Shown: one piece after another, positions 1 through 29,676 of the stretch
Layout of the letters: each line of letters starts with the position of its first letter
Numbering within the stretch: the stretch's first letter is position 1
Program-made: the position numbers and the translations under genes
Source: Planctomycetota bacterium
Lineage (GTDB): Bacteria; Planctomycetota; JAJSAM01
Assembly (NCBI GenBank): GCA_024274785.1
Contig: JAJSAM010000035.1
Span: 85,613-149,612 of the forward strand
DNA: 64,000 bases
Direction of reading: 5' to 3'
The notes under the pieces: generated by a model
The model's database searches: none
Told to the model about the DNA's origin: nothing
Seen by the model: only the letters and a program-made list of their open reading frames with translations

Positions 1-1628
1 GGCCAGAAGAAGATCAGCACCCCGGCGGAGCGGATCGCGGTGAGCAGCCCGGTCAGGCTCTCGCCCTCCATCCGCGCGAGGACGAGGAGGTTTCGGAAGA
101 AGGTCTGCGGGCGCTCCCTGGTGCTGACGAGATCCCGGCGCTCCTCTGCCCTGATGCCACCGTAGGTTTCACGGACGAACCGCACCCGGCGGGGTTCGAG
201 CAGGAGGTGGAGTCGCTCCGGTTCCAGGCGGGGGGGATCCGGCGCGATGCGTTGAAGCCGCTCGGCGAGGAGGCCGGGGTCGGTCGAGGCCGTCTCGCCC
301 GCGAGAAACCACGAGCGCTCCCCGGGAGAGACCAGCACCCGCGTGAATTCCGTCGAAAGCGTCGCCAGCACCGAGGTCCCGTAGCGGGTCAGCTCGGAGC
401 CGAAGTAGTTCTCGGCGGACGTGATCGCCGTGGCGAACGTTCCTCCCGGCCCGAGGCGGGTCCGGATCCAATCGTAGAATTCCCGCGTGAAAAAGCGTCC
501 GGCGAGAGCGGTGTCCGGATCGCCGACATCCACGACGATCAGGTCGAAGGGGGGCTCGGCCGGGAGTTTTTCGAGGGCGCCGGACACCACCCGCAGCCGA
601 TCGTCCTCGAGCGCCTTGCGCTCCTCCTCCGGCATCGCGGCGAGCAGGAAGTCGCGGCCGGCTCTGTCGGGGACGTAGCGGACGACCTCCCGGACCGGGT
701 AGCGCAGGAGCTCCCTTGCCAGCGTGTCGGTTCCGGAGCCGATGAGCAGGGCGCGCTGCGGATGCGTGCCCTGCGTGAGCAGCAGCGCGGCGTCCATCAC
801 GGCGGCGTCAAAGGAGGGCCAGGTGGCGAGGATCGAGCCGTTCTCGACGGCGATGGTCCGGTCGTCGATCCGTCCGATCTCGAGCCTCCGGTAGGGCGTT
901 TCGGTCCGGGCGACCGGCTCCGCGCCCGGATAGAGGCTCTGCCATTGACGCCGGGCGAGGCGATCCTCGAGCTGCGCTCCGACGGGGGTGAAGAGCAGCA
1001 CCAGGGAGCCGGCGAGCAGCATCGCATGGGCCCGGGCGGCGTGTTTCTGCTTCCCGTTCACGGCGGCGGCGAGGCCCGCGAACGCCAGCAGCGCGGTGAG
1101 GACCGGCAGCGCGGGCAGGGCGCCGTGTCCGAGCAGCAGGAAGGCGGTGATCGCCGCCGCTCCCAGGGCCGCGCCGGCGCATTCGCAGAGGTAGACGAAC
1201 GACACCGCCCCCCTGCTCTTCCGATGCCCCCTGCCCTTTCGAAACCACGCCACCGCCAGCGGGAACAGCGCCCCGGTGACGAAGCTCACCGGGGAGTTCG
1301 TGAGGAAAGTGGCGAGAAACAGGTCGCGGGTCCCGAAGAGGTCGGTGGGGGCCACGCCGGCCAGCGACCGGAGCTGCCGGATCAGGAGGAGCTGGAAGAG
1401 CAGGGCGACCGGGTAGAGCGCGAGCGCACTCGGAAACCACCGATGCCTTCTGCGCAGGCGCAGCGCGACCAGCGCCCCGACCCCGACCCAGAGGAGCCAG
1501 GAGGAGAAGAAGATCCCCGCACCCAGTTCGTTCCCCTCGTAGACGACCAGGTATTCGCGGAAGAGAGCGGTCTGCGCCGCGAGGGCGAAGGCGCCCATGA
1601 GCGCGAAGATCAGTGCGCGCCTACTCAT
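1..1628 (-). CDS. Polyamine aminopropyltransferase (spermidine-synthase/PABS family)-like membrane protein; 3' end lies beyond window start
   Basis: Not in ORF track (no stop in window). Reverse-complement translation from ATG (rc of 1626-1628) gives a continuous protein with an N-terminal hydrophobic region (MSRRALIFALMGAFALAAQTALFREYLVVYEG...) and PABS-like motifs (LLIGSGTDTLARELLRYP; DLIVVDVGDPDTALAGRFFTREFYDWIRTRLGPGGTFA). 8-bp overlap with upstream Memo/AMMECR1 gene end. Translated by eye, so exact frame continuity not machine-verified. Confidence 0.55.
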   Translation of the reverse strand, partial: MSRRALIFALMGAFALAAQTALFREYLVVYEGNELGAGIFFSSWLLWVGVGALVALRLRRRHRWFPSALALYPVALLFQLLLIRQLRSLAGVAPTDLFGTRDLFLATFLTNSPVSFVTGALFPLAVAWFRKGRGHRKSRGAVSFVYLCECAGAALGAAAITAFLLLGHGALPALPVLTALLAFAGLAAAVNGKQKHAARAHAMLLAGSLVLLFTPVGAQLEDRLARRQWQSLYPGAEPVARTETPYRRLEIGRIDDRTIAVENGSILATWPSFDAAVMDAALLLTQGTHPQRALLIGSGTDTLARELLRYPVREVVRYVPDRAGRDFLLAAMPEEERKALEDDRLRVVSGALEKLPAEPPFDLIVVDVGDPDTALAGRFFTREFYDWIRTRLGPGGTFATAITSAENYFGSELTRYGTSVLATLSTEFTRVLVSPGERSWFLAGETASTDPGLLAERLQRIAPDPPRLEPERLHLLLEPRRVRFVRETYGGIRAEERRDLVSTRERPQTFFRNLLVLARMEGESLTGLLTAIRSAGVLIFFW

Positions 1629-3168
1629 CCTCTCCGAATACCTGTGCGGTAAAGACCTCGAAGCTCGCGCGGGGGGAGGTGAAGGCGTCGGAGGCCAGCC
1701 CGCCCTTTCGCGAGAGGTGGATCAGCGTCTCTTCGAGGTCCCAGCCCTGCTCCGGGGCGACCTGGGGCAGGTAGACGGAGCGCCTTCGCCCGTCATAGGA
1801 GAGCAGGATGCCGTGCCTGCCGATCTCGATCTCCCGGAAGGACCCGATCTTCACCGGCGGCGTCAGGACCGAGATCTCGATGTGGATCTTCTCGAGTTCA
1901 TCCTCCTGGACGCGAGGGAAACGGCGGTCCTCCGCGGCCGAGGAGATGGCGCGTTTCAGAATCGACCTGTAGAGCGGGCGGACCGGGAGGATGTCGCCGA
2001 TGCATCCGCGCAGGCGGCTGTCGATCGTGAGGGTCACGAAGGACCCCGCGTCCGGGCGGAGGCCTTCGGGGATCGATACGCCCTCTTTCTCCAGGTCGTA
2101 GACTTCGCCCTCGCGGATGAATCGCTCCATGCTCTCCCGGGCGATCTCGAGCGCGAACTGCTGCTCCGCTTCGGTGAGTGCGCGGAACTTCGTCTCTTCA
2201 GGCGCCTCCCGGGCCGGACCGGTGAAGGCGATTCCGACGTAGGAGACGGAGTTGGTGTAGTCGCCGCCGCCCGCGCCGGAGGTGTCGTAGCCGGTGAGCT
2301 TCGCTTCGGTCTCCGGCGGGAGCAGGGAGAGCAGCACGCAGATCGGGGCGAAACCGCAGATGGTGATCCCGGTGTCGCGCTTGAAGTCGACGAAACCGTC
2401 GAAGTCGAGATCGAGGAGGTGCTTTGCGGCGCCGAGATCGAGTTTTCTCAGGTTCTCGGCGATGTGGTCGTCAACGGGGAACGGCTGGTAGCCGAACCGG
2501 GGGCCGTAGTGGGCGCTGTCGGAGGAAGCGATCACCAGGTCGCCCGGGCGAAGCTCTTTTTTCAGGGCCGCGGCCACCGCGCGGGAGGCTTCCGGACTCG
2601 TGCCGACGAGCATCGGAACGAGGAAGAAATCGCCGAGGATCCGCTGCAGGAACGGGAGCTGGATTTCCACCGAGTGCTCGGTCTGGTGGGCGGTGGGATG
2701 GACGCTGAACGGGCCGCCGGAAGCAAGGAGTCGGTCCGCCGCGGCCCGGTCGAGCGGGACTTTGCCGAGGGGCGTTTCGTAGTGCGTGACCGCGGGGATG
2801 GAGACGCCGTCCACCGCGGCGCGATGGGGAACCGCCAGGATGAAGACCCGGGTGTAGGAACGCCCGCGGATGGCTGCGTAGACCGCGGCCTGCATCGGGC
2901 CGGCAAAGTTGTACCCGGCGTGCGGGACGATCAGGGCGGTGGGGGCCCCGCCGTCCCACTTCGGGGCGTTGGCGAGGAGAGAGTCGACCTTCTTCGCCAG
3001 CTCTTTCGCGGTGCCCGGGTACCAGCCGCGTCCGGCGAGCGCGGCCTTCCGCACGAGGTGGGGTTCGGGCGCCTCGACCGGTTGCGGGACTGGATTCCCG
3101 GTCGGCGGCGGATCCTGGTCGCAGGCCGGCAGGGCCAGCAGGACGAGGAGCAGGGAGATCGATTTCAT
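1621..3168 (-). CDS. AmmeMemoRadiSam system protein B (Memo1-like) fused to protein A (AMMECR1 domain); predicted lipoprotein
   Basis: 515-aa ORF. N-terminal lipobox MKSISLLLVLLALPAC. Memo-like region (ALIVPHAGYNFAGPMQAAVYAAI...). C-terminal AMMECR1-like region (GSFVTLTI...LRGCIG). Directly downstream of the partner radical SAM gene. Confidence 0.8.
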   Translation of the reverse strand: MKSISLLLVLLALPACDQDPPPTGNPVPQPVEAPEPHLVRKAALAGRGWYPGTAKELAKKVDSLLANAPKWDGGAPTALIVPHAGYNFAGPMQAAVYAAIRGRSYTRVFILAVPHRAAVDGVSIPAVTHYETPLGKVPLDRAAADRLLASGGPFSVHPTAHQTEHSVEIQLPFLQRILGDFFLVPMLVGTSPEASRAVAAALKKELRPGDLVIASSDSAHYGPRFGYQPFPVDDHIAENLRKLDLGAAKHLLDLDFDGFVDFKRDTGITICGFAPICVLLSLLPPETEAKLTGYDTSGAGGGDYTNSVSYVGIAFTGPAREAPEETKFRALTEAEQQFALEIARESMERFIREGEVYDLEKEGVSIPEGLRPDAGSFVTLTIDSRLRGCIGDILPVRPLYRSILKRAISSAAEDRRFPRVQEDELEKIHIEISVLTPPVKIGSFREIEIGRHGILLSYDGRRRSVYLPQVAPEQGWDLEETLIHLSRKGGLASDAFTSPRASFEVFTAQVFGEDE

Positions 3169-3172
3169 GGCA

Positions 3173-3340
3173 TTACCCCGCGAGGTCGTTTCTATCTCTC
3201 AGGCGCCGCCGGTCGAGGGGCTTCACCGGGATCAGGATCCGCCTCCCGGTCCTGGCAAGCAGGCCGAGGGCGGTGAGCGCGGCGGCGCCGGACAGCGTCA
3301 GGGCGGAGAGCAGGAAGCCGCGCCGGGTCGGGCCGTTCAT
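3173..3340 (-). CDS. Small ORF (55 aa) with twin-arginine-like N-terminus
   Basis: MNGPTRRGFLLSALTLSGAAALTALGLLA... Its ATG overlaps the TGA stop of the rSAM gene (ATGA at 3337-3340). Stop TAA at 3173-3175, 5 nt upstream of the Memo/AMMECR1 start. Short ORFs are common by chance in GC-rich DNA. Confidence 0.2.
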   Translation of the reverse strand: MNGPTRRGFLLSALTLSGAAALTALGLLARTGRRILIPVKPLDRRRLRDRNDLAG

Positions 3341-4311
3341 TCAAAGACTCCTTCCGTCGGACGGTCGCAGGAGAGGCAGCGTCCTTCGCGTATCCGGATT
3401 TCGCCGAGCCGGTAACCGACGCGCGGGATCAGCTCCGCACCGCACCCGGGACAGCGGGTGGTCTCTCCGCCGGAACCCGGGACGTTACCGACATAGACGT
3501 AGTGCAGGCCGACCTCGCGGGCGATCTCCCTGGCGCGGAGGAGCCGCTTCGGGGAGGTCGGCGGGAGGTTTTTCAGTCGGTAACGCGGGAAGAAACGGGA
3601 GAAGTGGAGGGGTGTCTCGGGACCCAGGTGGTCATGCACGAAGCGCGCGAGGCATCGGATGCTCCTCTCGTCGTCGTTCAGCGTCGGAATGACGAGGTTG
3701 GTGACCTCCACCCAGACGCCCTCCTCCTTCGCGATCACGAGGGCGTCCTGCACCGGCTTCAAGGTCGCTCCGCACACTTCCCGGTAGAGGCGGTCGGAGA
3801 AGAACTTCAGGTCGATGTTGGCGGCGTCGGTCACCCTGCAGAGGCGGCGCCAGGGATCCTCGTTCACGTAGCCGGCGGTGACGAGGACGTTGCGGAGTCC
3901 CGCTGCGCGCGCCTGCAGGGAGGTCTCGAGCGCGAATTCGTAGAAGACCACCGGGTCGGTGTAGGTGAAGGCCACCGAGCGGCAACCCTCCTCTCCGGCG
4001 AGCGCGATCACCTGCTCCGGGGGGCAGAGGTAGGCCGGCTCCTCTTCCGGGTTGGCCTGCGAGATCTCCCAGTTCTGGCAGTTGGTGCAGTGCAGGTTGC
4101 AGCCGACGGTGGCGATGGAGAAGATCGCCGACCCCGGCAGGAAGTGGAAGAGGGGTTTCTTCTCGATGGGATCGACGTGGAGCGAGCAGGGCCGCCCGTA
4201 GGTGACCGCGCGAAGCCTGCCGTCCAGGTTGATCCGGATCCGGCACTCCCCACTCTGCCCCGGAGCAATCCGGCATTGCTTCGGACACAACTGGCAGGTC
4301 ACGAAGCTCAT
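3337..4311 (-). CDS. AmmeMemoRadiSam system radical SAM enzyme (PFL-activating-enzyme-like)
   Basis: 324 aa. CNLHCTNCQNW radical-SAM CxxxCxxC motif. C-terminal CPGCGAEL...CLSC cysteine cluster. Operon with the Memo/AMMECR1 gene. Confidence 0.85.
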   Translation of the reverse strand: MSFVTCQLCPKQCRIAPGQSGECRIRINLDGRLRAVTYGRPCSLHVDPIEKKPLFHFLPGSAIFSIATVGCNLHCTNCQNWEISQANPEEEPAYLCPPEQVIALAGEEGCRSVAFTYTDPVVFYEFALETSLQARAAGLRNVLVTAGYVNEDPWRRLCRVTDAANIDLKFFSDRLYREVCGATLKPVQDALVIAKEEGVWVEVTNLVIPTLNDDERSIRCLARFVHDHLGPETPLHFSRFFPRYRLKNLPPTSPKRLLRAREIAREVGLHYVYVGNVPGSGGETTRCPGCGAELIPRVGYRLGEIRIREGRCLSCDRPTEGVFE

Positions 4312-4354
4312 TGCCGGATTCTACACGACGAGGCCCTTCGGCGACATTGGACAA

Positions 4355-4364
4355 GGGGGGGGGG
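4355..4364. repeat. G10 homopolymeric tract 44 bp upstream of AmmeMemoRadiSam operon start
   Basis: acaaGGGGGGGGGGcggg read directly in the sequence. Confidence 0.9.
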
Positions 4365-4647
4365 CGGGATGTCCCCATCGACCACTGGGGTGAGTTGGGA
4401 CTGCTTGATCGGAGGGCGGTGCGCCTGCGCCACCACGATGGTCCTGGTGCGTTCGCGTTCTCCGTTGCGCGGACGAGGCGGCCGACCTCTCTGCCGGATT
4501 GCTCGCAGGATCCAGGGCGAGTCGCTGCCGGTCACCAACCTGTCCGGCTGGCTGAGGAGCTTGCGTACCTGACGGTCTTCTGCCTCACTGCTTCACCGAC
4601 CTGTCCGCTCTGCCATTTTTGTCACCATCGTCCGGTAACCTCTTCGC

Positions 4648-6345
4648 ATGGAAGGACGGACTCTCCACATCCACGAGGCGCGGATCGGGATCGGTCTGCC
4701 TACCCGCACCGTTCGGCCGCACGGGCGGAAGGGCGATGAGATTCTGGCGGCGCTGCACACGGCGCTCGGGGAACCGGCGGACCGGATCGTTCTCACCGGC
4801 CGGTTGTTCGAGCGGCCGGATCCGGCGGCCCACCTGGTGGACCGGGTCGTGGCGCCGCTCGCGGATCTCGTCGCTCGGGGTATTGCGGTCACCGCTCCGT
4901 CCCACACGTCTCGTGCCCTGCTGTTCCTCGCGGCCGGAATCGGCCTCGCCGACGTGGACCTCCCGGGTCCTCCGGTCGAGTTCTGGCGGGTGGGGCGGTT
5001 TCGGGTGCTCAGCGGGGGGGAATCGGAGGTGCGCCAGGTCCGCCTTCCCGGCATCGCCGAAGTGACGATCGACCTGACCGGTCTGGCCATCGGTGAGGCT
5101 CTCGAGGCCATCCGCACCCGGCTGCGCCCGATTCAGGCGGTGCGGATGGTTCGGCTCACGCTTCACGGCCGGACCGCCGAGCGGGAACTGCTCACCTTCG
5201 GGCATCGGGAGATCCGCCACTACCTGCCGGGCGGCGTGGACGGCGCGGTGGTGAACGAACTGACCGGCCGCCGACCCGGAAACGGGCAGTTCGAGAGTGA
5301 CGACGCGCGGAAGGCCGCGCTCGCCGAGCGCCGGAAGCGCCTGCCGGACCTCCCCGAGACCACCGGGGTCTACGAGTTTCAGGACGATCGCGGTCGGCCG
5401 CTCTATGTCGGCAAGGCCGTGAACATCCGCCGGAGGGTAGCCTCGCACTTCACCGCCGAGGCCCGGGAGGAATCGCCGCGCGGCCCCATGCTTCTCGCTG
5501 CCCGGAACCTGGTCTTCTCCGAAATGCCGACCGAGGTGGAGGCCCTCCTCCGGGAGGCGGAGCGGATCCGGGAAGCCCGCCCCCCGTACAACCGGCAGAT
5601 GCGTGAGACCGAGAACTACCGGTATCTTCGCGCCGATGTCGACGCCGTTGTGCCGGGCATCACCTCGGTTCCGGAGACGAAGAAGGACGGCGCGGTCTAC
5701 ATCGGCCCGTTTCCAAAACGCTGGCCGGTGGAACGGTCCATCCGGACGCTGATGGTGATCTACGGCCTGAAGTCGTGCAAATGGAAGCCTTCGGAAGAGG
5801 CGCCCCCGATCTGCACCGATCGCGACCTCGACCTCTGCACCGCGCCATGTACCGGCCGGGTATCGCTCCCGGAGTATCGCGAGCGGGTGATGATGGCCCT
5901 CGACGACCTGCTCGGCACCGGACTCGGCGAGCCTGCGTTCGGTGCCCTGAACTCGCCGTCGGCCGGCCTGTTGGCCACCGGGGATCTGCGCATTCTGGAC
6001 AGGTTCCGGGGCAGTGTCCGCTACCTGCTCGACAACCTGCGCTCCGCCTGCGGGACCCTGCCGCTTTCCGATGGCCGAACGCTCCTCGTGCTGGGAGGCC
6101 TGCGTGCCGGCGTTCGGCGGGTGAGCGAAACCGAAGCTGACGAATGGCGCCGCCGGTCCCTCAGGGCCTTCTCCCGTCATCCGCCCCGCACCGCCGTCTC
6201 GGTATCGCGGGTGAACGAGGTGCGCATCCTCTCCCGGGCGCTGCGGGAGCAGGGGGCTTGCATCGTTCCCTCCACCGAGCGGCCCTGCCGCAATGGAGGG
6301 TCGACCTCCGGGCGACTGTGCTGGCAGTCCGGCAGCGTCATGTAG
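4648..6345 (+). CDS. GIY-YIG nuclease (Cho/UvrC N-terminal-half-like) with N-terminal degenerate calcineurin-like (SbcD/Mre11-like) region
   Basis: 565 aa. GIY-YIG motif TGVYEFQDDRGRPLYVGKAVNIRRRVASHF. UvrC-like Cys-rich segment (EAPPICTDRDLDLCTAPCTGRVSLPEYRERVMMALDDLL). N-terminus TLHIHEARIG / RIVLTGRLFERPD resembles the SbcD phosphoesterase motifs (LHTSDWHLG / VLIAGDLFD) with metal ligands substituted. The last 19 codons are supplied by repeat copy A. Confidence 0.6.
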   Translation: MEGRTLHIHEARIGIGLPTRTVRPHGRKGDEILAALHTALGEPADRIVLTGRLFERPDPAAHLVDRVVAPLADLVARGIAVTAPSHTSRALLFLAAGIGLADVDLPGPPVEFWRVGRFRVLSGGESEVRQVRLPGIAEVTIDLTGLAIGEALEAIRTRLRPIQAVRMVRLTLHGRTAERELLTFGHREIRHYLPGGVDGAVVNELTGRRPGNGQFESDDARKAALAERRKRLPDLPETTGVYEFQDDRGRPLYVGKAVNIRRRVASHFTAEAREESPRGPMLLAARNLVFSEMPTEVEALLREAERIREARPPYNRQMRETENYRYLRADVDAVVPGITSVPETKKDGAVYIGPFPKRWPVERSIRTLMVIYGLKSCKWKPSEEAPPICTDRDLDLCTAPCTGRVSLPEYRERVMMALDDLLGTGLGEPAFGALNSPSAGLLATGDLRILDRFRGSVRYLLDNLRSACGTLPLSDGRTLLVLGGLRAGVRRVSETEADEWRRRSLRAFSRHPPRTAVSVSRVNEVRILSRALREQGACIVPSTERPCRNGGSTSGRLCWQSGSVM

Positions 6346-23060: not shown

Positions 23061-24278
23061 TCACCCGATGCGTCCGTACTCCAGCACCAGGATGCTGACG
23101 TCGTCCTCCGGGCGGCGGCGGCGGCCGAAGGTCTGGACGGCCTCCCAGACGCCATCGGCGGTGTCCTGCACCGATCGTCCGTCGTGGGCGGTCAGCACCT
23201 CAATCAGCCTCTCTTCACCGAAGAACTCTCCGTCCGGGCTTCGGGTGTCGAGGATGCCGTCGGTGTAGAGCACCACCCGGTCGCCGTCGCGGAGCAGGAT
23301 CTCGTCTTCGGTAAAGCCCTGCGCGGCGCCGAGGCCGATGATCGGGCCGTGGTGGGAGAGAGGCGAAACCGATCCGTCCGCCTCGATCAGGATCGGCGGT
23401 GGATGGCCGGCGCAGGCGTAGGTGAACTTCCCCTCGCCGAGTTCGAGAGTAGCGCACGCGATGGTCATGTAGCTGCCGAACCGCTCGAACGGGAATGCGG
23501 CCTCCAGGCTGTTCAACACGCTTGCCGGAGCACGCACGCCGCCGCCCCGGCCCATGATGCCCTGCCGGGAGAGCAGGAACTGGGACGCGGTGGTGGCCAT
23601 GAACGCGGCCGAGACGCCGTGCCCGCAGACATCGAGCATGTACAGGCCGAGTCGTTCGTGGTCGGGGCAGTGGAAGTTGAAGAAGTCGCCGCCGATCTGC
23701 CCGGAGGGGCGGAATCGCCAGGCGAGTCGCACGGAGTCGAGGTCGAGGCGGTCCTTCGGCAGGAGATTTCGCTGGATGCCGGCCGCGGCGGCCAGGTCGT
23801 CGTTGATCTGACGGCTCTTTCTCTCGAGCTCTTCCCGCTGGGTGACCTCTCCGGTGACGTCGTGGATGATCACCAGCACCATGTCCCGGCCCTTGAAGGC
23901 GAGCTTGCGGGTGCTGAGTTCGAGGTGCCGGGTGCTGGCCTGGCCCCCTCGGAAGAACTCCCGGGTGAGTGGCTGCCTGTCCACCGGAACGTCCTTCGTG
24001 AGCGTCTCGACGAGGGTTTGCCGGAGCACGCAGTTTCCGCAGTGGGTCGTCTCCCCGCACGGCCGTCCCTCCTCGCCGTGGTATCGGCAGCGCATGGCTT
24101 CGCCGAACCGGGTTTCGGTGGGATCGCGCTGGGGACTGTCGAAGAGGTCGAGGAACGATCGGTTGAAGCGGTGGATGCGCCCGCCCCCGTCGGCGATCAG
24201 CACCGCGGCGGTGATGTTGTCGAGGAGGAGGTTCAGGAAGTCGTTCGACTCGTGCAGGTCTTCGAGATCCGTGAACAT
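23061..24278 (-). CDS. PP2C-type Ser/Thr phosphatase (SpoIIE/RsbU-like) with N-terminal Cys-rich PAS-like sensor
   Basis: 405 aa. C-terminal PPM motifs (GGDFFNF...LGLYMLDVCGHGVSAAFM...LYTDGILD). N-terminal HGEEGRPCGETTHCGNC. Confidence 0.8.
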   Translation of the reverse strand: MFTDLEDLHESNDFLNLLLDNITAAVLIADGGGRIHRFNRSFLDLFDSPQRDPTETRFGEAMRCRYHGEEGRPCGETTHCGNCVLRQTLVETLTKDVPVDRQPLTREFFRGGQASTRHLELSTRKLAFKGRDMVLVIIHDVTGEVTQREELERKSRQINDDLAAAAGIQRNLLPKDRLDLDSVRLAWRFRPSGQIGGDFFNFHCPDHERLGLYMLDVCGHGVSAAFMATTASQFLLSRQGIMGRGGGVRAPASVLNSLEAAFPFERFGSYMTIACATLELGEGKFTYACAGHPPPILIEADGSVSPLSHHGPIIGLGAAQGFTEDEILLRDGDRVVLYTDGILDTRSPDGEFFGEERLIEVLTAHDGRSVQDTADGVWEAVQTFGRRRRPEDDVSILVLEYGRIG

Positions 24279-24492
24279 GACGGGCCAAGGTTACCATCCA
24301 GAGCCGGGGAACCGGCATCGCCCCCCGGGCGGGGCTCGCCCGGCCGACAAGCAACCCGACGCGCACTGTTACCTCTCGAGCAGGCAAAGCCACTCCCCTG
24401 AAGCAGGTGGAAACGGTGGCGGTCTCCTGCGAGACTGCTCTGTGGCTGAGCCGGATGGACTTGCGGAGGGAAGGGATGGGAGGATCCTGGAA

Positions 24493-27400
24493 GTGCCACT
24501 GACCAAGAAGTTGCTCTTCGACCTCGAGATCGACCGGAGGGGAGGGATTCGGCAGATCGGTGCGGTGCTCGACCGGGTGGAGTTCTATCGTGAGGTGTCC
24601 GGTAGCCCCGGGGCGGCGCTCGCGGAGTTGGATGCCTTCGCCCGGGGGGCGGCGTGCGTGCTCGGGCACAACGTCCTCGCGCACGATCTCCCGCATCTTC
24701 TGCGGGTGGCGCCGAACCTTCGGCTTCTGAAGCTGCCGGTGGTCGATACCCTTTTTCTCTCCCCTCTGGCCTTTCCCGAGAACCCCTATCACAGCCTGGT
24801 GAAGGACTACAAGCTGCTCTCCGCCTCGCTGAACGACCCCGTGGCGGATGCGCGGCTCGCCGGTCGGGCATTCTCCGAGCAATGGGAGGCCCTGGCCCTT
24901 GTCGCGACGGGTACTCCTCCGCTCATGGATCTCCTGCAGTTCTGTTTCCAGGGCGTCTCCTTCGTGGAGGGCGGCAGCGGGGACGGCATCGCCCGGGTCT
25001 TCTGCTCCCTCGCTGGCAGGCAGCCCCACGACGCGATCAATGCCGACAAAGCACATCAGATCTTCGCCGACCAGGCGCGGGATCTGTGTTGCCGGAGTGC
25101 GATCAACGAAGTTGGACGGGAGCTGATCGACGACGCCGTCCGGCGGCCCGAACTCGCCTTCATCGCCAGTTGGCTCCGGGTGGCCGGTGCGAAGTCGGTG
25201 TTACCGTCGTGGGTGCGGCATCGGTTCCCCGGTATCCGGACTGCCATCCACCGACTTCGCGATGCTCCCTGCGGCAACTCGGAGTGTTGCTACTGCAAGG
25301 GCACCCAGGATCCCGAGGAGCAGCTGAGACGGTTCTTCAAGTTCGACGGCTTCCGCTTGACCGGGGGCAAGCCGCTCCAACGGAAGATTGTGCTTGCGGG
25401 AATGCGCAACGAATCGCTGGTCGCCCTTCTGCCCACCGGTGGAGGCAAGTCCCTCAGCTTTCAACTCCCCGCCCTCGTGCGATACGTCCGACGCGGTGCG
25501 CTGACCGTCGTGATCTCGCCGCTGCAGGCGCTGATGAAGGACCAGGTGGAAGGTCTCGTCAAACGAACCGGCTCGCCCCACGCCGGTGCGATCTACGGGA
25601 TGCTCACCCCTCCTGAACGCCGCGAGCAACTTGAGCGCATCCGGCTCGGGGACACCGCGATCGTCTACGTCTCCCCGGAACAACTGCGCAACCGTTCGTT
25701 CCGGCAGACCATCCTCTCCCGAGAGATCGGTTGCTTCGTCTTCGATGAAGCCCACTGCATTTCGAAGTGGGGCCACGACTTCCGGCCGGACTACTTCTAT
25801 GCTTCCCGCTTCGTCCGTGAACTGGCCTCCGAGCAGGGCACGGAGATCCCGCCCGTGGCCTGTTTCACCGCCACGGGAAAACCGGACGTGATCGAGGAGA
25901 TCAAGGACCACTTCCGCACCGTCCTCGGCCACGAACTGGAGGAGTTCCGGGGACCCATCGCCCGTGAGGAGCTCGTCTACTCGGTGCGGGACACCACCGG
26001 GCCGCAGAAACTCGAGCAGGTGGCCGGCGTGCTTCGCGAGAAGCTCTTTTCGAACGGAGGTGGCGCGGGGATCGTGTACCGGGCCACCCGGAAGCGGACG
26101 GAGGAGACCGCCGAGTACCTGAAGAAGCGCGGGATCGTCGCCCGGGCGTTCCACGCCGGTCTCCGGGCGCCGACGAAACGCGAAGTCCAGGACGAGTTTC
26201 TCGCGGGAAAGGTGCCGGTGATCTGCGCCACCAACGCATTCGGCATGGGGATCGACAAGTCCGATGTCCGGGTGGTGGTGCATGCGGACATCCCGAGGTC
26301 GATCGAGAGTTACCTGCAGGAGGCTGGCCGCGCCGGCCGCGACCGCAAGCGGGCCGACTGCATCCTGCTCTTTGATGAGCACGACGTCGAGACGCAGTTC
26401 CGCCTGGCAGCTTTCGGAAAGATCACCCGGCACGATATCGTGCAGATCCGCCGCGCCGTGAAACGTGCCACTGATCGGCAGAAGGGGGCGGCCGTGATCA
26501 CTACCGGGGAGCTTCTGCGGGATCAGTATCTTGAGACTTCCATCGACGCGGAGGATCGCTCCGCGGACACCAAGGTAAAGATGGCGCTGTCCTGGCTCGA
26601 GCGGGCCGGATTCCTCGAGCGTAACGAGAACCGAACGACTGTTTTCCAGGGTGTGCCCCGGGTGAAGGACCTGGAGGAGGCCCGGTTGAAGATCAGCAGC
26701 AAGCAGGTTCCGGAGCAGACGGCGAGGCGGTGGATCGCCGTCCTCGAAGCGCTCCTCAACGCCGACCCGGATCAGGCGTTGACCTTTGACCAACTCGCGG
26801 GGCACCGGGCCTACGAGCATTTCTGGGCGACCTGTGACGGCACGATCGTGACCCGCCAGGTCCGCAAGGATCTCCATGAGATGGCTGAGGTCGGGCTGAT
26901 CGACCAGGGGCTCGTCTTCAGTGCGTTCGTCCGTCCCAGAGGGCAGAGGACTTCGAAGCGTCTCTTCGAGCAGGCGAGGGATAGCGAGGTCAGTCTGCTC
27001 GACCTGATCAGGAAGACCGCTCCCGACGCGGAACAGGGACAGTGGCAACTCCTCGAATTAAACAAGCTGCATCAGAGGCTCAAGTCCGGTGATACCGACT
27101 GCAGTCCGGAATCGATCCGGCTCCTCCTGAAGAGCTTGAGCATGGATGGGCGGGGCCTGGCCGGGAGCGGAGGCAGCCTGGAACTGGCGCAGACCTCACG
27201 GTTTCGCTATCGCGTGAAGGTCTCCCGAAAGTGGGACGCCCTCGAGGCGACCGCGAAGATCCGCCGTGAGGTCGCGTGGAAGGCACTGGCGGTGATGCTT
27301 GAAAAAGCGAAGCACGTTGGGGAGGAGGAGCAGCTCGTCTCGTTCACCGCGGCAGAGGTCGTGGCGGCAATTCACAAGGATCCCGCACTCGCCCGCAAGG

Positions 27401-29676
27401 TGAAGAGCCCCTTGGATGCCGTCGACCGCGGGCTGATGTTTCTCCACGAGCAGGGTTCGATCATCCTGCGCCAGGGCCTTGCGGTGTTCCGGCAGGCCAT
27501 GACCATCGAACTCTCGAAGGAGATGAGGGGGAGAACCTACTCGAAGAAGCACTACGACGCCCTCGATCGCCATTACGGAGAGCGCGTCGCGCAGGTCCAT
27601 GCCATGAACGAGTACGCCCGCCTGGCGCTGAAAGAACAGCGGGCGGCCGATCGATTCGTCAACGACTGCTTCAGCCTTGAGCGCGATGCGTTCTTCACGA
27701 AGTACTTCGGGGATCGGCAGGAGGTGCTGCGTCGGGCGACGGGGGTTGAGTCCTACCACCGGATCGTCACCGGGCTCGAGAACGACCACCAGATCGAGGT
27801 GGTGACCGCTCCCCTCGAGGGGAACATGCTGGTCCTGGCGGGACCGGGTTCCGGCAAGACCCGCGTGGTGGTGCACCGCTGCGCCTTCCTGCTCAGAGTT
27901 CAGAGAGTGCGTCCGGAGGAAGTGCTGATCCTCTGCTTCAATCACAACGCCGCGGTGGAGCTCCGAAAGAGGCTTGGCGACCTGATCGGCATGGACGCGC
28001 GAGGTGTCACCGCGCTGACCTACCACGGCCTGGCCATGCGGATCACCGGGACCTCGTTTGCGGAAAGGGCGGAATGCGATCAGGACGGGGAGATCAAGTT
28101 CGATGAGATCCTGCAGGACGCGGTGCGGCTGATCCGGGGGGATGTCGAGATCCCCGGGATCGAGCCCGACCAGGTGCGGGAGCGCCTGCTGGCCGGGTAC
28201 CGCTACCTGCTGGTGGACGAGTATCAGGATATCGACGAAGTGCAGTACGAGTTGGTCTCGGCGATCGCCGGCCGAACAGAGCAGGACGGGGAGAACAGAC
28301 TCCGGATTCTCGCGGTGGGGGACGACGACCAGAACATCTACACCTGGCGCGGCGCGGACGTGAGCTTCCTTCGGCGGTTCGAGGAGGACTATCAGGCCAG
28401 ACGGTTCCGACTGCTCCACAACTACCGCTCCTCGAAGAACATCATCGAAGTGTCCAACCGCTTCATCGCCACGAACCCTGGTCGCTTGAAAGTTTCCGAT
28501 CCCATCCGGGTCAACGAGCAGCGGGTGCTCTACGCGGCGGGGGGGCGCTGGGAGGGCCTGGATCCGGTCTCGCGGGGCCGGGTGAGGCAGATCATCATTT
28601 CGAGTCCGGCGGAAGAGGCTTCGGCGATCGTGGCAGAACTGCGTCGGGTGAAGGAGTTGGACTCCAATACCTCCTGGCATGAATTCGCCGTCCTGGCCCG
28701 GACCCGGAATACCCTGCAGCCGATCCGGTCGCTCCTCACGCACTACGGGATCCCCGTCTCGCTGGTGGTGCCGCGCGAGCAGGCCCCGCCCCTCAACCGC
28801 ATCCGCGAGATCGAGACATTGCTCAATTCGCTGAGGGAGAAGGCGGAGCAGAGTGTCCGGCCGACGGAGCTGCTGAAAGATGTCCACCGCGATCTCAAGA
28901 TGCGGCCCGGGCACTACTGGCTCGACCTCCTTCGCGAACTGCTGACGGCGTTCAAGGAGGAAACCTCGAACGCGGATCAGCCCCGCGGCCATGCGGTGGA
29001 GTATCTGTACGAGGCCCTCGTGCAGCGGCGCCGCGAGAGCCGGATCGGCGCGGGTGTCTACCTCGGGACCGTGCACTCGGCCAAGGGGATGGAGTTTCAG
29101 CACGTGATCATCCCCGCGACCGGTTGGGCGGAGTTGCGGGAAGATGCCACCGTGGGCGAGGAGCGCCGGACCTTCTATGTCGGCATGACTCGCGCGAGGG
29201 AGATGCTGACCGTGATCCACTGCCCCGGACTGTCTCCGTCCCACGTCGGACTGGTGGATGGCAAGGAGATCCTGTCCACCGGGCCGGCGGAGCAAGCGGC
29301 GGTGCCCGAGGGGATCCTCACGCGCCGGTACGAGGCCCTCGGCCTTTCCGACCTCTTCATCGACCTCGCCGGGCAGCGGGCCGCGTCGGACCCCATACAC
29401 AACGCGCTGATGCACCTGGATTGCGGATCGAGACTCACCGTGCGGGAGCAGTCCGGGAACGTGGTGCTCCTCGATGGGGGTGGATGCCCGGTCGCCAGGC
29501 TTTCGGCCTCGGCGAAGGAGCGCTGGCTGGCCCGGCTTCGGGATGTCGAATCAGTGTGCGTGCTGGCGATGATCAAGCGGCGACGTGGGGACACCGGTGA
29601 GGAGTACGAGGACCGCATGCGCGTCGATGCGTGGGAAGTCCCGTTCTGCGAGCTGATCTACCGGGAGCAGTGCTGA
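24493..29676 (+). CDS. Three-module DNA helicase/nuclease: DnaQ-like 3'-5' exonuclease, RecQ-family helicase, long linker, UvrD/PcrA-family helicase (1727 aa)
   Basis: Exo I motif (LLFDLEID) at N-terminus. RecQ motifs (LLPTGGGKSLSFQLPAL, VVISPLQALMKDQV, FVFDEAHCISKWGHDFRPDY, ATNAFGMGIDKSDVRVVVH, QEAGRAGRD). UvrD motifs (LVLAGPGSGKTRVVVHRCAFLL, LLVDEYQDIDEVQYELV, VGDDDQNIYTWRGADV, HNYRSSKNIIE, GTVHSAKGMEFQHVII, VGMTRAREML). GTG start at 24493 preceded by GGGAGGA RBS. The track ORF extends upstream without support. Confidence 0.85.
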   Translation: MPLTKKLLFDLEIDRRGGIRQIGAVLDRVEFYREVSGSPGAALAELDAFARGAACVLGHNVLAHDLPHLLRVAPNLRLLKLPVVDTLFLSPLAFPENPYHSLVKDYKLLSASLNDPVADARLAGRAFSEQWEALALVATGTPPLMDLLQFCFQGVSFVEGGSGDGIARVFCSLAGRQPHDAINADKAHQIFADQARDLCCRSAINEVGRELIDDAVRRPELAFIASWLRVAGAKSVLPSWVRHRFPGIRTAIHRLRDAPCGNSECCYCKGTQDPEEQLRRFFKFDGFRLTGGKPLQRKIVLAGMRNESLVALLPTGGGKSLSFQLPALVRYVRRGALTVVISPLQALMKDQVEGLVKRTGSPHAGAIYGMLTPPERREQLERIRLGDTAIVYVSPEQLRNRSFRQTILSREIGCFVFDEAHCISKWGHDFRPDYFYASRFVRELASEQGTEIPPVACFTATGKPDVIEEIKDHFRTVLGHELEEFRGPIAREELVYSVRDTTGPQKLEQVAGVLREKLFSNGGGAGIVYRATRKRTEETAEYLKKRGIVARAFHAGLRAPTKREVQDEFLAGKVPVICATNAFGMGIDKSDVRVVVHADIPRSIESYLQEAGRAGRDRKRADCILLFDEHDVETQFRLAAFGKITRHDIVQIRRAVKRATDRQKGAAVITTGELLRDQYLETSIDAEDRSADTKVKMALSWLERAGFLERNENRTTVFQGVPRVKDLEEARLKISSKQVPEQTARRWIAVLEALLNADPDQALTFDQLAGHRAYEHFWATCDGTIVTRQVRKDLHEMAEVGLIDQGLVFSAFVRPRGQRTSKRLFEQARDSEVSLLDLIRKTAPDAEQGQWQLLELNKLHQRLKSGDTDCSPESIRLLLKSLSMDGRGLAGSGGSLELAQTSRFRYRVKVSRKWDALEATAKIRREVAWKALAVMLEKAKHVGEEEQLVSFTAAEVVAAIHKDPALARKVKSPLDAVDRGLMFLHEQGSIILRQGLAVFRQAMTIELSKEMRGRTYSKKHYDALDRHYGERVAQVHAMNEYARLALKEQRAADRFVNDCFSLERDAFFTKYFGDRQEVLRRATGVESYHRIVTGLENDHQIEVVTAPLEGNMLVLAGPGSGKTRVVVHRCAFLLRVQRVRPEEVLILCFNHNAAVELRKRLGDLIGMDARGVTALTYHGLAMRITGTSFAERAECDQDGEIKFDEILQDAVRLIRGDVEIPGIEPDQVRERLLAGYRYLLVDEYQDIDEVQYELVSAIAGRTEQDGENRLRILAVGDDDQNIYTWRGADVSFLRRFEEDYQARRFRLLHNYRSSKNIIEVSNRFIATNPGRLKVSDPIRVNEQRVLYAAGGRWEGLDPVSRGRVRQIIISSPAEEASAIVAELRRVKELDSNTSWHEFAVLARTRNTLQPIRSLLTHYGIPVSLVVPREQAPPLNRIREIETLLNSLREKAEQSVRPTELLKDVHRDLKMRPGHYWLDLLRELLTAFKEETSNADQPRGHAVEYLYEALVQRRRESRIGAGVYLGTVHSAKGMEFQHVIIPATGWAELREDATVGEERRTFYVGMTRAREMLTVIHCPGLSPSHVGLVDGKEILSTGPAEQAAVPEGILTRRYEALGLSDLFIDLAGQRAASDPIHNALMHLDCGSRLTVREQSGNVVLLDGGGCPVARLSASAKERWLARLRDVESVCVLAMIKRRRGDTGEEYEDRMRVDAWEVPFCELIYREQC

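What the first reader, a model, noticed from the sequence alone, without database searches (positions are those of the whole stretch)
1..4400. Atypical AmmeMemoRadiSam locus: fused B-A protein with lipobox, tiny twin-arginine-like ORF, PABS partner, G10 tract
The three AmmeMemoRadiSam functions are here encoded as a radical SAM enzyme plus a single 515-aa Memo-like/AMMECR1 fusion. The fusion carries a lipoprotein signal (LLVLLALPAC) although the rSAM partner must be cytoplasmic. A 55-codon ORF with an RRGFLL motif is wedged between the two genes with an ATGA overlap to the rSAM stop. A membrane-type spermidine-synthase-family gene follows with an 8-bp overlap, suggesting a functional link between this enigmatic system and an aminopropyl transfer. 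A G10 tract sits 44 bp upstream of the operon.
Basis: partly seen in the sequence, partly recalled or inferred. Interest (0 to 1): 0.55.

Follow-up and report, generated by a model that had tools for sequence, protein, structure and literature searches.

The report
Exported radical-SAM/Memo/AMMECR1 membrane system
This operon is one copy of a widespread four-gene cassette in which an enigmatic radical-SAM/Memo/AMMECR1 enzyme set looks built to work outside the cytoplasm, with a conserved, unannotated 55-residue twin-arginine protein probably carrying the iron-sulfur enzyme across the membrane.

Summary
On the minus strand the operon reads: radical SAM enzyme (rSAM, 4311..3337), a 55-aa ORF (3340..3173), a Memo-AMMECR1 fusion (3168..1621), then a PABS-like membrane gene (from 1628) that the window edge cuts.

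None of it is a local oddity. The B-A fusion has thousands of homologues, and 102 of 111 with complete N-termini carry a signal, lipobox or membrane anchor. The small ORF sits in 51-52 of 53 rSAM-to-fusion gaps across phyla. It has an RRxF(L/I) motif, usually the same ATGA overlap, and a C-terminal Gly (51/53). It matches no Pfam or NCBIfam family.

In relatives the PABS gene encodes a 1180-1370-aa protein: 7 TM, SpeE-like domain, 8 TM, FMN_bind with a TGAT flavinylation motif, then a NapH/NosR-like Fe-S module.

Five sister loci carry the twin-arginine signal on the rSAM itself. The rSAM here lacks its first ~11 canonical residues. That missing motif (EAxFYKKLE) lies at the predicted periplasmic C-terminal tail of the giant protein.

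Best reading (about 0.55): an exported AmmeMemoRadiSam system using Tat hitchhiking. The G10 tract is at chance level. The chemistry remains unknown.

The parts
3337..4311 (-). AmmeMemoRadiSam radical SAM enzyme, N-terminally short form (324 aa). It starts 5 residues before the first Cys and carries no signal peptide.
   Evidence: TIGR04337 scores 377 bits (cutoff 220), aligned to HMM positions 12-334 of 349, so canonical positions 1-11 are missing. PF04055 scores 66.9 bits. All but one (a fragment) of the 120 best homologues start 4-48 residues before the CxxCPxxC motif, mostly 323-327 aa long. The only solved relative found is PFL-activating enzyme.
3173..3340 (-). S1: a conserved 55-aa twin-arginine protein. 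It has a Tat-like signal (T5-R-R-G-F-L-L11, uncharged stretch to A29) followed by a basic tail ending ...RLRDRNDLAG-stop. It is the predicted Tat escort or anchor of the rSAM.
   Evidence: An equivalent ORF sits in 51-52 of 53 rSAM-to-fusion gaps. Of 53 members, 52 have RRx[hydrophobic]2, 37 have [STN]RRxF[LIVMF] and 51 end in Gly. The ATGA overlap with the rSAM stop occurs in most loci. phmmer finds 5 small homologues of 55-60 aa. There is no Pfam or NCBIfam family. TIGR01409 is above cutoff for three orthologues but gives no hit for the window copy.
3308..3328 (-). Twin-arginine motif T-R-R-G-F-L-L of S1
   Evidence: Read directly from the sequence. It matches 6 of 7 positions of the S/T-R-R-x-F-L-K consensus. 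The family HMM also matches the Tat signals of neighbouring DUF362 proteins.
1621..3168 (-). Memo-like (protein B) / AMMECR1 (protein A) fusion, 515 aa, a predicted exported lipoprotein.
   Evidence: Searches give the domains. Metal-site and active-site residues are invariant in 37 homologues: H83, H115, D217, H220, C271, R387-G-C-I-G391 and D414-x-R-F417. Thousands of fused homologues exist.
3121..3168 (-). Signal peptide with lipobox L-P-A-C16, then Asp at +2 and a Pro-rich linker up to residue 39
   Evidence: Sequence. 102 of 111 homologues with complete N-termini have a hydrophobic N-terminal segment, and 54 have a lipobox-like Cys. Unfused Memo proteins in L012, L013 and L017-L019 have none.
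2224..3051 (-). Memo domain (residues 40-315)
   Evidence: PF01875 178.6 bits; TIGR04336 204.9 bits
1636..2157 (-). AMMECR1 domain (residues 338-511)
   Evidence: PF01871 160.5 bits; TIGR04335 150 bits
1..1628 (-). First 542 codons of the giant membrane protein: a 7-TM block (about 993-1628), then a SpeE/PABS-like domain (about 9-941). The gene continues beyond the window start.
   Evidence: It is 52-57% identical to the N-terminal part of the equivalent protein in L020, L022 and L023; the L020 (1213 aa) and L023 (1245 aa) copies are full-length and carry Spermine_synth + FMN_bind + Fer4_5.
4312..4647 (.). Divergent intergenic region upstream of the operon. It contains the G10 tract at 4355-4364, which is probably incidental.

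Best explanation
The locus encodes an extracytoplasmic version of the AmmeMemoRadiSam system, assembled on the outer face of the cytoplasmic membrane.

Shown:
- A four-gene cassette (rSAM, S1, Memo-AMMECR1 fusion, giant membrane protein) is conserved and tightly coupled across many phyla.
- The fusion carries Sec-type signals, lipoboxes or N-terminal anchors family-wide.
- S1 is a conserved small protein with a twin-arginine motif.
- The giant protein combines a SpeE-like domain, an FMN_bind domain with a conserved TGAT flavinylation motif, and a NapH/NosR-like module with two CX3CP motifs.
- Sister loci carry a twin-arginine signal on the rSAM itself.
- The rSAM of this clade lacks canonical residues 1-11. 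That motif (EAxFYKKLE) is found at the C-terminal tail of the giant protein, on a separate 71-aa anchor-plus-tail ORF ('S2'), and in some S1 proteins.

Inferred:
1. The rSAM receives its Fe-S clusters in the cytoplasm. It binds the tail of S1 and crosses the membrane by the Tat pathway as a hitchhiker. S1 may stay as an uncleaved signal anchor.
2. The fusion is exported by Sec, lipidated and kept at the inner membrane. The window copy has Asp at +2; other clades use a TM anchor.
3. The rSAM docks on the periplasmic tail of the giant protein, which supplies the missing N-terminal segment.
4. The NapH-like Fe-S module passes electrons from the cytoplasmic side to the covalently bound periplasmic FMN. 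That FMN replaces flavodoxin as reductant of the rSAM and/or the Memo metal site.
5. The substrate is an envelope molecule, not RNA.

Most speculative: the transporter-like TM blocks and the SpeE-like domain, which has a SAM-binding fold, may supply or handle SAM. The reaction chemistry is not known.
For: - Domain assignments.
- Recurrence of the cassette: of fused loci with enough flank, 42/62 have the rSAM directly upstream and 41/73 have the PABS-like gene directly downstream. 51-52/53 have S1. Independent assemblies include L020, L022, L023, L104 (Omnitrophica), L105 (vent metagenome; fusion protein named Sedimenticola sp. by NCBI), L004 (Lentisphaerae) and L007 (Fermentibacteraceae). No other gene is conserved across the loci.
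- Export signals on the fusion.
- S1 features. TIGR01409 is above cutoff for three orthologues. The S1 profile matches the Tat signals of neighbouring DUF362 proteins.
- Tat signal fused to the rSAM: seen in L074, L078, L082, L084 and L101. In the four complete copies TIGR04337 aligns from HMM position 1-2 only after a 40-80-aa RR-bearing extension; L074, L078 and L082 show AxA-type cleavage sites.
- The rSAM here starts at HMM position 11-12.
- Giant-tail motif: present in 21/32 full-length giants, with separate S2 ORFs in L020, L028, L031 and L104. Background is about 2 in 1900 ORFs.
- Virtual fusions: joining tail or S2 to the rSAM extends the TIGR04337 alignment to HMM position 2-5 and adds 1.2-4.0 bits in 3 of 4 loci.
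- Topology: K+R counts over 32 giants alternate cleanly. They place the SpeE-like domain, FMN_bind and the final tail outside, and the CX3CP/Fe-S loops inside.
- Precedent: hitchhiker export of Fe-S enzymes is established (PMC10924467). NapH-like flavinylated conduits serve periplasmic enzymes, and most of their partners are unknown (PMC8238504).
Against: - No signal-peptide predictor could be run. The window's own S1 gets no TIGR01409 or PF10518 hit.
- The S1 tail is very basic (median 9 K/R against 2 D/E). By the positive-inside rule that favours a cytoplasmic location.
- Profile tests do not show that the S1 tail is homologous to the rSAM N-terminus. Tat-DUF362 controls score the same as Tat-rSAMs. 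S1+rSAM virtual fusions gain nothing for the window, L027 or L087, and only 1.8-3.1 bits for L086 and L056.
- No charge complementarity between the rSAM and the tail was found.
- SAM is not known to be available in the periplasm.
- The sister clade with Tat-fused rSAM mostly lacks the giant protein (only L074 has a partial PABS-like hit). The giant therefore cannot be the universal SAM or electron supplier.
- The topology rests on hydropathy and charge only. Two of the TM hairpins are inferred from long hydrophobic stretches.
- In the window itself the FMN_bind, NapH-like part and tail lie beyond the edge.
Confidence: 0.55

Rival explanations
1. Cytoplasmic rSAM tethered to the membrane. S1 is a monotopic or hairpin membrane tether with both charged ends in the cytoplasm, and its RR is simply positive-inside residues. 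The rSAM docks on the cytoplasmic side of the giant protein next to its Fe-S clusters and modifies a lipid-linked or membrane substrate. The transporter-like TM blocks then flip the substrate, and the exported Memo-AMMECR1 lipoprotein finishes the reaction in the periplasm.
For: - The S1 tail is strongly basic and its uncharged stretch is short (median 16 residues).
- SAM and low-potential reductant are available in the cytoplasm.
- The NapH-like Fe-S domain is cytoplasmic.
- The window S1 is not called by Tat HMMs.
Against: - Five sister loci carry Tat signals on the rSAM itself, three of them with clear AxA sites.
- The EAxFYKKLE docking-type tail follows the most hydrophobic segment of the giant (TM21). 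By alternation from the cytoplasmic Fe-S loop it lies outside.
- The stand-alone S2 of L104 starts MKDKFLK followed by a TM, which reads as N-in, C-out.
- [ST]RRxF[LI] is conserved far beyond what a generic positive patch needs (37/53).
Confidence: 0.25
2. S1 is a ribosomal precursor peptide and the substrate of the PFL-activase-like rSAM. The rSAM acts at or near the invariant C-terminal Gly. The peptide is then exported by Tat and processed by Memo-AMMECR1 into a periplasmic cofactor or signal.
For: - Conserved C-terminal [WL]-x-Gly-stop (51/53).
- The rSAM is closest to glycyl-radical-enzyme activases.
- Translational coupling to the rSAM.
Against: - The tail sequence differs strongly between clades (KWSG, HDLAG, FYRxx). 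No conserved core residue other than Gly was found.
- The sister clade and the canonical systems have the same three enzymes without any such peptide.
- The rSAM has no RiPP recognition domain (324 aa, Radical_SAM only).
- The related EAxFY tail is part of a 1200-aa membrane protein.
Confidence: 0.07
3. One reading: an otherwise ordinary cytoplasmic AmmeMemoRadiSam system functionally coupled to an aminopropyl transfer (polyamine synthesis or polyamine modification of the product) by a membrane spermidine synthase.
For: - PF01564 is above cutoff, and the window copy keeps D-V-G-D-P and the LFT.EFY motif of aminopropyltransferases.
- The adjacency recurs.
Against: - All spermidine synthase equivalog models are far below cutoff.
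- The Gly-rich loop is degenerate (GSGTDT), and the catalytic DxxDP reads NLPD in most homologues.
- The domain is embedded in a 21-TM redox protein and is predicted to face the periplasm.
- The system is clearly not an ordinary cytoplasmic one.
Confidence: 0.1

Closest known systems
AmmeMemoRadiSam system (TIGR04335 protein A / TIGR04336 protein B / TIGR04337 radical SAM; Memo-AMMECR1-rSAM neighbourhood of Balaji & Aravind 2007, PMC2034487)
   Same: All three families are present above their curated cutoffs and are co-transcribed. The Memo metal-site residues and the AMMECR1 RGCIG/DxRF motifs are kept. B-A fusions were already noted in 2007.
   Different: - The fusion carries an export signal.
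- The rSAM lacks its first ~11 residues and is paired with a small twin-arginine protein.
- A giant SpeE-like/FMN_bind/NapH-like membrane protein is a constant fourth partner.
- The published prediction (an RNA base modification in the cytoplasm) does not fit an exported system.
- I recall that Burroughs et al. 2019 (JBC 294:10211) extended the Memo gene contexts towards 'aliphatic isoprenoid modification'. That paper could not be read here, so it may already cover part of this.
Tat 'hitchhiker' export of cofactor-containing enzymes (for example [NiFe] hydrogenase HybO/HybC; reviewed in PMC10924467)
   Same: An Fe-S enzyme without a signal is encoded next to, and translationally coupled with, a partner that carries the twin-arginine signal. 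The partner may remain as a membrane anchor.
   Different: Here the signal-bearing partner is only 50-70 aa, essentially a signal plus a ~25-35-aa tail. The passenger would be a radical SAM enzyme. A phrase search of the held open-access library found no paper describing an exported one. Export is inferred, not shown.
NosR / NapH / PceC-type flavinylated membrane electron conduits (Meheust et al. 2021, PMC8238504)
   Same: A periplasmic FMN_bind domain with a [ST]GAT motif, then TM helices with two CX3CP motifs and a cytoplasmic Cys cluster. Such conduits are encoded next to a periplasmic enzyme that needs electrons.
   Different: Here it is fused behind a 7TM / SpeE-like / 8TM module and ends in an extra TM plus an rSAM-N-terminus-like tail. 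The partner is Memo-AMMECR1 plus rSAM rather than a respiratory reductase. The terms Memo, AMMECR1, radical SAM and spermidine do not occur in the main text of that survey.
Membrane-bound spermidine-synthase-like proteins (PRK03612; NF037959 'fused MFS/spermidine synthase')
   Same: N-terminal multi-TM block followed by a SpeE-fold domain. NF037959 is above its cutoff for the window fragment.
   Different: It is far below every spermidine synthase equivalog cutoff and has a degenerate Gly loop. A second TM block and redox domains follow. The catalytic domain is predicted to face the periplasm.
Pyruvate formate-lyase activating enzyme and other glycyl-radical-enzyme activases
   Same: This is the closest characterised rSAM family by sequence and the only solved relative found. 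Like these enzymes, the rSAM here may act on a partner protein.
   Different: Scores are far below those families' cutoffs. The protein has extra N- and C-terminal Cys motifs. No glycyl-radical enzyme is in the cassette.

Membership tests
AmmeMemoRadiSam system | Radical SAM enzyme matching TIGR04337 above cutoff, with a CX3CX2C cluster motif | tested here: met
   377 bits against a cutoff of 220; C71-x3-C75-x2-C78
AmmeMemoRadiSam system | Protein B (Memo-like, TIGR04336) and protein A (AMMECR1, TIGR04335) above cutoff | tested here: met
   204.9 bits (cutoff 26) and 150 bits (cutoff 99), both in one 515-aa polypeptide
AmmeMemoRadiSam system | The three functions encoded together in one locus | tested here: met
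   Same strand with 4-bp and 8-bp overlaps or a 4-nt gap. The arrangement recurs in 42/62 related loci.
AmmeMemoRadiSam system | Full-length canonical rSAM (HMM positions 1-349) | tested here: not met
   The alignment starts at HMM position 12 at residue 4. The same holds for all but one (a fragment) of the 120 best homologues. Tat-fused sister forms align from position 1-2.
Tat substrate / Tat signal-bearing escort (S1) | Twin-arginine motif S/T-R-R-x-F-L-K followed by an uncharged h-region | tested here: met
   The window has T-R-R-G-F-L-L followed by 22 uncharged residues. 52/53 family members have RRx[hydrophobic]2; the median uncharged run is 16.
Tat substrate / Tat signal-bearing escort (S1) | Recognition by curated Tat-signal models (TIGR01409 / PF10518) | tested here: inconclusive
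   No hit for the window S1, L022 or the KWSG-type members. Hits of 17.1-20.2 bits (cutoff 16.7) for L066, L087 and L095; 13.5 bits for L020.
Tat substrate / Tat signal-bearing escort (S1) | tatC-dependent export, and a physical complex with a signal-less passenger | not testable with these tools
   Needs reporter fusions, fractionation or a multimer structure prediction.
Bacterial lipoprotein (fusion N-terminus) | Positively charged n-region, hydrophobic core, lipobox [LVI][ASTVI][GAS]C within the first ~35 residues | tested here: inconclusive
   The window has K2, L6-L13 and L-P-A-C16. Pro at -2 falls outside the consensus. The closest homologues have LLAC, LAAC, LAGC or LTSC, and 37 of 111 pass a PROSITE-PS51257-like rule. 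LipoP and SignalP were not available.
NapH/NosR-like flavinylated conduit (giant protein) | FMN_bind domain with a [ST]GA[ST] flavinylation motif, multi-TM region with two CX3CP motifs, cytoplasmic Cys cluster | tested here: met
   Met in relatives only. PF04205 and PF12801 are above cutoff in L020 and L023. 'tGATvSS', 'YCGYiCPFG' and 'RFWCRYlCPvG' are conserved in 32 giants. The corresponding part of the window's gene lies beyond coordinate 1 and cannot be seen.
Spermidine synthase / polyamine aminopropyltransferase | Match to equivalog models; GGGDGG dcSAM loop; catalytic D-x-x-D-P | tested here: not met
   TIGR00417 scores 30.2 against 249.55, PRK00811 40.2 against 260 and PRK03612 79.3 against 472. 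The loop is GSGTDT. D-V-G-D-P is kept in the window but is N-L-P-D in the family consensus. Only the fold-level Pfam domain passes (27.9 against 22.9).

The most novel reading that the evidence does not exclude
A complete radical SAM enzyme system works in the periplasm. The Fe-S enzyme is carried out by Tat on a 55-aa signal-only subunit. It then docks by fragment complementation onto the periplasmic tail of a giant membrane protein. That protein feeds it electrons through covalently bound FMN, acting as a flavodoxin substitute, and possibly SAM through its transporter-like and SpeE-like module. The exported Memo-AMMECR1 lipoprotein is the rSAM's partner or target. This would place the conserved Memo/AMMECR1 chemistry on a cell-envelope substrate.
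Probability: 0.35. Interest if true: 0.9.

Novelty: new variant of a known kind. Interest (0 to 1): 0.72.

Why it matters
Memo and AMMECR1 are conserved from archaea to humans and are linked to disease, yet their biochemical function is unknown. The only standing prediction for the prokaryotic three-gene system is a cytoplasmic RNA-base modification.

A large, multi-phylum clade shows a different arrangement:
- the Memo-AMMECR1 pair is exported;
- the radical SAM partner carries, or is escorted by, a Tat signal;
- a dedicated flavinylated Fe-S membrane conduit is attached.

This points to a redox reaction on an envelope molecule and gives concrete experiments to run.

It would also be, as far as I could find, the first case of a radical SAM enzyme working outside the cytoplasm. 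That raises the question of how SAM and a low-potential electron reach it.

Two unannotated small-protein families come out of this work: S1, and the S2/giant tail. So does an apparent split of the rSAM N-terminus onto a partner protein.

Tried and rejected
1. **Is the S1 tail homologous to the canonical rSAM N-terminus?** An HMM of 58 S1 proteins matched only the Tat-signal part of the Tat-fused rSAMs. It scored the Tat-DUF362 controls equally. S1+rSAM virtual fusions gave no TIGR04337 gain for the window, L027 or L087, and only +1.8 and +3.1 bits for L086 and L056. The idea is kept only as a motif-level resemblance in the gamma-type loci ('EAxFY').
2. **Charge complementarity between the rSAM and the basic S1 tail.** None was found. 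The median net charge of 108 rSAMs is +2.
3. **G10 tract as a regulatory or phase-variation element.** Rejected: it is at chance level and not conserved.
4. **phmmer of the 55-aa ORF against 1.84 billion representatives.** It found only 5 true small homologues. The family was recovered by genome context instead.
5. **Word-index search with the truncated PABS fragment.** It returned only 8 weak hits and not the source protein.
6. **Source contig.** It could not be retrieved, so the rest of the window's giant gene was not seen.
7. **Other conserved cassette genes.** All-against-all clustering of 1928 ORFs found none beyond the four, plus DUF362 in the sister clade.
8. **Rfam scan of the window.** No matches.
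9. **Literature.** Burroughs et al. 2019 is not held. No paper in the library uses phrases such as 'periplasmic radical SAM'. The flavinylation surveys do not mention Memo, AMMECR1 or radical SAM.
10. **Structure prediction.** Not used.

Full report
**1. What is in the window**

Four genes lie head to tail on the minus strand.

- **Radical SAM enzyme (rSAM), 4311..3337, 324 aa.** TIGR04337 scores 377 bits against a cutoff of 220. The cluster motif is C71-x3-C75-x2-C78.
- **Small ORF, 3340..3173, 55 aa.** The sequence is MNGPTRRGFLLSALTLSGAAALTALGLLARTGRRILIPVKPLDRRRLRDRNDLAG. Its ATG overlaps the rSAM stop codon as ATGA.
- **Memo-AMMECR1 fusion, 3168..1621, 515 aa.** TIGR04336 scores 204.9 and TIGR04335 scores 150. 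The N-terminus is MKSISLLLVLLALPAC-DQD, followed by a Pro-rich linker.
- **PABS-like membrane gene.** It starts at 1628, overlapping the fusion stop by 8 bp, and runs off the window start after 542 codons. PF01564 scores 27.9 bits. NF037959 'fused MFS/spermidine synthase' scores 43.9 against a cutoff of 40.

A G10 run lies at 4355-4364. The last gene is truncated by the window edge. The lipobox has an atypical Pro at -2. The G10 run is what composition predicts: 2 runs of 10 or more in the window against 1.3 expected. It is also absent upstream of the rSAM in L020, L022 and L023.

**2. The locus is the standard form of a large family**

The fusion protein has thousands of fused homologues in Planctomycetota, Verrucomicrobiota and Lentisphaerae, Hydrogenedentes, Omnitrophica, Desulfobacterota, Gammaproteobacteria and others. 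Balaji and Aravind noted such fusions in 2007 (PMC2034487).

Export signals are a family trait. Of 111 homologues with a complete N-terminus, 102 have a strongly hydrophobic N-terminal segment. These are lipoboxes in the window's clade (LLAC, LAAC, LAGC), signal-peptidase-I type signals, or a charged N-terminus plus a long TM anchor. Unfused Memo proteins fetched in the same scan have none.

I collected 107 loci from genomes and metagenomes and mapped the window's proteins onto them. Among fused loci with enough flank:

| Feature | Count |
|---|---|
| rSAM directly upstream of the fusion | 42 of 62 |
| PABS-like gene directly downstream | 41 of 73 |
| Small twin-arginine ORF in the rSAM-to-fusion gap | 51-52 of 53 |

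An alternative gene order also occurs, with the giant gene upstream and then rSAM, small ORF and fusion in a row (L056, L086, L087, L090, L105). All-against-all clustering of the ORFs found no further conserved partner.

**3. The small ORF (S1) is a real, unannotated gene family**

Its members are 50-70 aa long. Of 53, 52 have RRx[hydrophobic]2 and 37 have [STN]RRxF[LIVMF]. An uncharged stretch follows (median 16 residues), then a basic tail, and 51 of 53 end in Gly-stop. Two main C-terminal types exist...KWSG, and ...HDLAG as in the window.

The ATGA overlap with the rSAM stop is present in most loci. Gene callers do call the ORF in NCBI, JGI and ENA records, without any family assignment. 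phmmer finds five close small homologues.

Neither Pfam nor NCBIfam has a family for it. The generic Tat-signal model TIGR01409 passes its cutoff for three orthologues but reports nothing for the window copy.

**4. The 'PABS partner' is the front end of a giant redox membrane protein**

In the window's nearest relatives with a complete copy of this gene (L020 and L023, 54% and 52% identical over the visible part) and in about 30 other loci, the gene encodes 1180-1370 aa. Pfam finds Spermine_synth, FMN_bind and Fer4_5.

An alignment of 32 full-length proteins gives this order:

1. 7 TM helices
2. SpeE-like domain
3. 8 TM helices, sharing motifs with the first block and so an internal duplication
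4. FMN_bind with a conserved T-G-A-T-V-S-S flavinylation-type motif
5. 5 TM helices carrying two CX3CP motifs and a Cys cluster, as in NapH and NosR
6. a last, very hydrophobic TM helix
7. a ~38-aa tail

K+R counts per loop alternate cleanly across the whole protein. They place the N-terminus and the Fe-S loops inside. They place the SpeE-like domain, FMN_bind and the tail outside.

This topology is predicted, not shown. Two hairpins are inferred from long hydrophobic stretches, and the flanks of the SpeE-like domain are themselves positively charged.

The SpeE-like domain is not a bona fide spermidine synthase. Every equivalog model is far below cutoff, the Gly loop is degenerate, and DxxDP is kept in the window copy but reads NLPD in the family consensus.

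**5. Two observations that change the interpretation**

*The rSAM can carry its own Tat signal.* In a sister set of loci (L074, L078, L082, L084, L101) the order is: fusion with signal, then a DUF362 protein with a twin-arginine signal, then the rSAM. There the rSAM itself carries a 40-80-aa N-terminal extension holding the twin-arginine signal. Examples are MTVLSRRGFFL...RAFA-G...ITRRDLLK...SYA-Q...PSRRDLLRLG...VLA-Q and MKISRRELL.... In the four complete copies TIGR04337 then aligns from HMM position 1-2, at a motif such as KEAKFYKKLEGKRVEC. The rSAM of this system can therefore be an apparent Tat substrate in its own right.

*The rSAM here has lost its N-terminus, and a partner has it.* The rSAM of the window's clade always begins 4-5 residues before the first Cys (MSFVTC.., MKVQC..), which is HMM position 11-12. 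It lacks that N-terminal motif.

[quoted passage not shown] It is present in 21 of 32 full-length giants, with two near-misses.

Where the giant ends earlier, the last TM plus tail is a separate ~71-aa ORF ('S2'). This is seen in L020, L028, L031 and L104; L105 has an S2-like ORF overlapping the rSAM start. The gammaproteobacterial-type S1 proteins also carry EA.FY. Background for the motif at ORF ends is about 2 in 1900.

Joining tail or S2 to the rSAM in silico extends the TIGR04337 alignment to position 2-5 and adds 1.2-4.0 bits in three of four loci. This is modest but consistent support. The same test for the S1 tail was negative or marginal, so I do not claim that homology.

**6. Most likely mechanism (confidence about 0.55)**

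[quoted passage not shown] All steps below are inferred.

1. The rSAM folds and receives its clusters in the cytoplasm. It is exported by Tat as a hitchhiker on S1. This route is established for other Fe-S enzymes (PMC10924467).
2. The Memo-AMMECR1 fusion goes through Sec and is lipid-anchored or TM-anchored.
3. The rSAM docks on the giant's periplasmic tail, which supplies its missing N-terminal segment.
4. The NapH-like module and its covalently bound FMN deliver electrons. NapH-like flavinylated conduits are known to serve periplasmic enzymes, and most of their partners are unassigned (PMC8238504).

Because the partner protein is exported unfolded, any rSAM action on or with it has to happen after export. 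That would explain why the rSAM must follow it out.

Whether the transporter-like blocks and the SpeE-like domain provide SAM is speculation. The sister clade has no giant protein in L101, so this cannot be the universal solution.

**7. Rivals**

- **(a) Cytoplasmic rSAM tethered by S1 and the giant (0.25).** Only Memo-AMMECR1 would be outside. This is favoured by the very basic S1 tail and by SAM availability. It is disfavoured by the Tat-fused sister forms and by the TM helix that precedes the docking tail.
- **(b) S1 as a precursor-peptide substrate (0.07).**
This could be an add-on to any of the models.

**8. Comparison with known systems and novelty**

By its three defining families this is a member of the AmmeMemoRadiSam system. 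It is a variant in which one defining protein is N-terminally split and the whole system appears to be exported. It also has two extra constant components: S1, and the giant conduit with its tail or S2.

I found nothing in the searchable literature on exported radical SAM enzymes or on this cassette. Burroughs et al. 2019 extended the Memo gene contexts, but I could not read that paper.

I file this as a new variant of a known kind. Interest is high because it redirects the search for the function of Memo and AMMECR1, and because a periplasmic radical SAM enzyme would be unexpected.

Noticed in passing
L074:2639-3700, L078:8624-9622, L082:9281-10276, L101:8427-9353: In the sister clade a 308-353-aa DUF362 protein (PF04015, 66-85 bits) with its own twin-arginine signal sits between the exported fusion and the Tat-signal rSAM. 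It seems to take the place of the giant conduit. In L101 an AAT/Ntn-hydrolase family gene follows.
   Followed up: partly
L020:7397-7612, L104:8621-8836, L105:5586-5831, L028:8898-9149, L031:11945-12304: Small 'S2' ORFs: a TM anchor plus a tail ending in LSD.EA.FY.... They correspond to the last TM and tail of the giant protein when that part is encoded separately. Gene callers assign them no family.
   Followed up: partly
L040, L054, L059, L068, L088, L093 (second AMMECR1 match just downstream of the fusion): Some exported B-A fusions are followed by an extra stand-alone AMMECR1 gene and have no rSAM within the flank held.
   Followed up: no
alignment of 32 giant proteins: The two TM blocks flanking the SpeE-like domain share motifs (iTG.lFP.AC / cGlctG.yFP.aA and VYi.EAaG..GG / LE.ADHlGaa.Gg). 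This indicates an internal duplication, as in two-half transporters. L105's giant also gives a weak MFS_1 hit.
   Followed up: partly
   Followed up: no
window 23842-29676 (+): A 1944-aa ORF that combines DEAD/Helicase_C with UvrD-helicase/UvrD_C domains in one reading frame. It is either an unusual double-helicase fusion or two genes read through in this list of mechanical ORFs.
   Followed up: no
window 4648-6345 (+): The divergent neighbour of the operon is a 565-aa protein with only a marginal GIY-YIG match (23 bits). The syntenic gene in L022 has a weak UvrC_M hit. A dTDP-sugar epimerase gene follows in both loci, so the flank is syntenic with GCA_016277765.1.
   Followed up: partly
window 3121-3123 and following codon (fusion Cys16-Asp17): Asp at +2 after the lipobox Cys is shared by P0002, P0010 and P0014 (Cys-Asp visible in the listing). 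In the E. coli sorting rule this is the inner-membrane retention signal. It fits a partner of an inner-membrane protein, but the rule is not established for this phylum.
   Followed up: no
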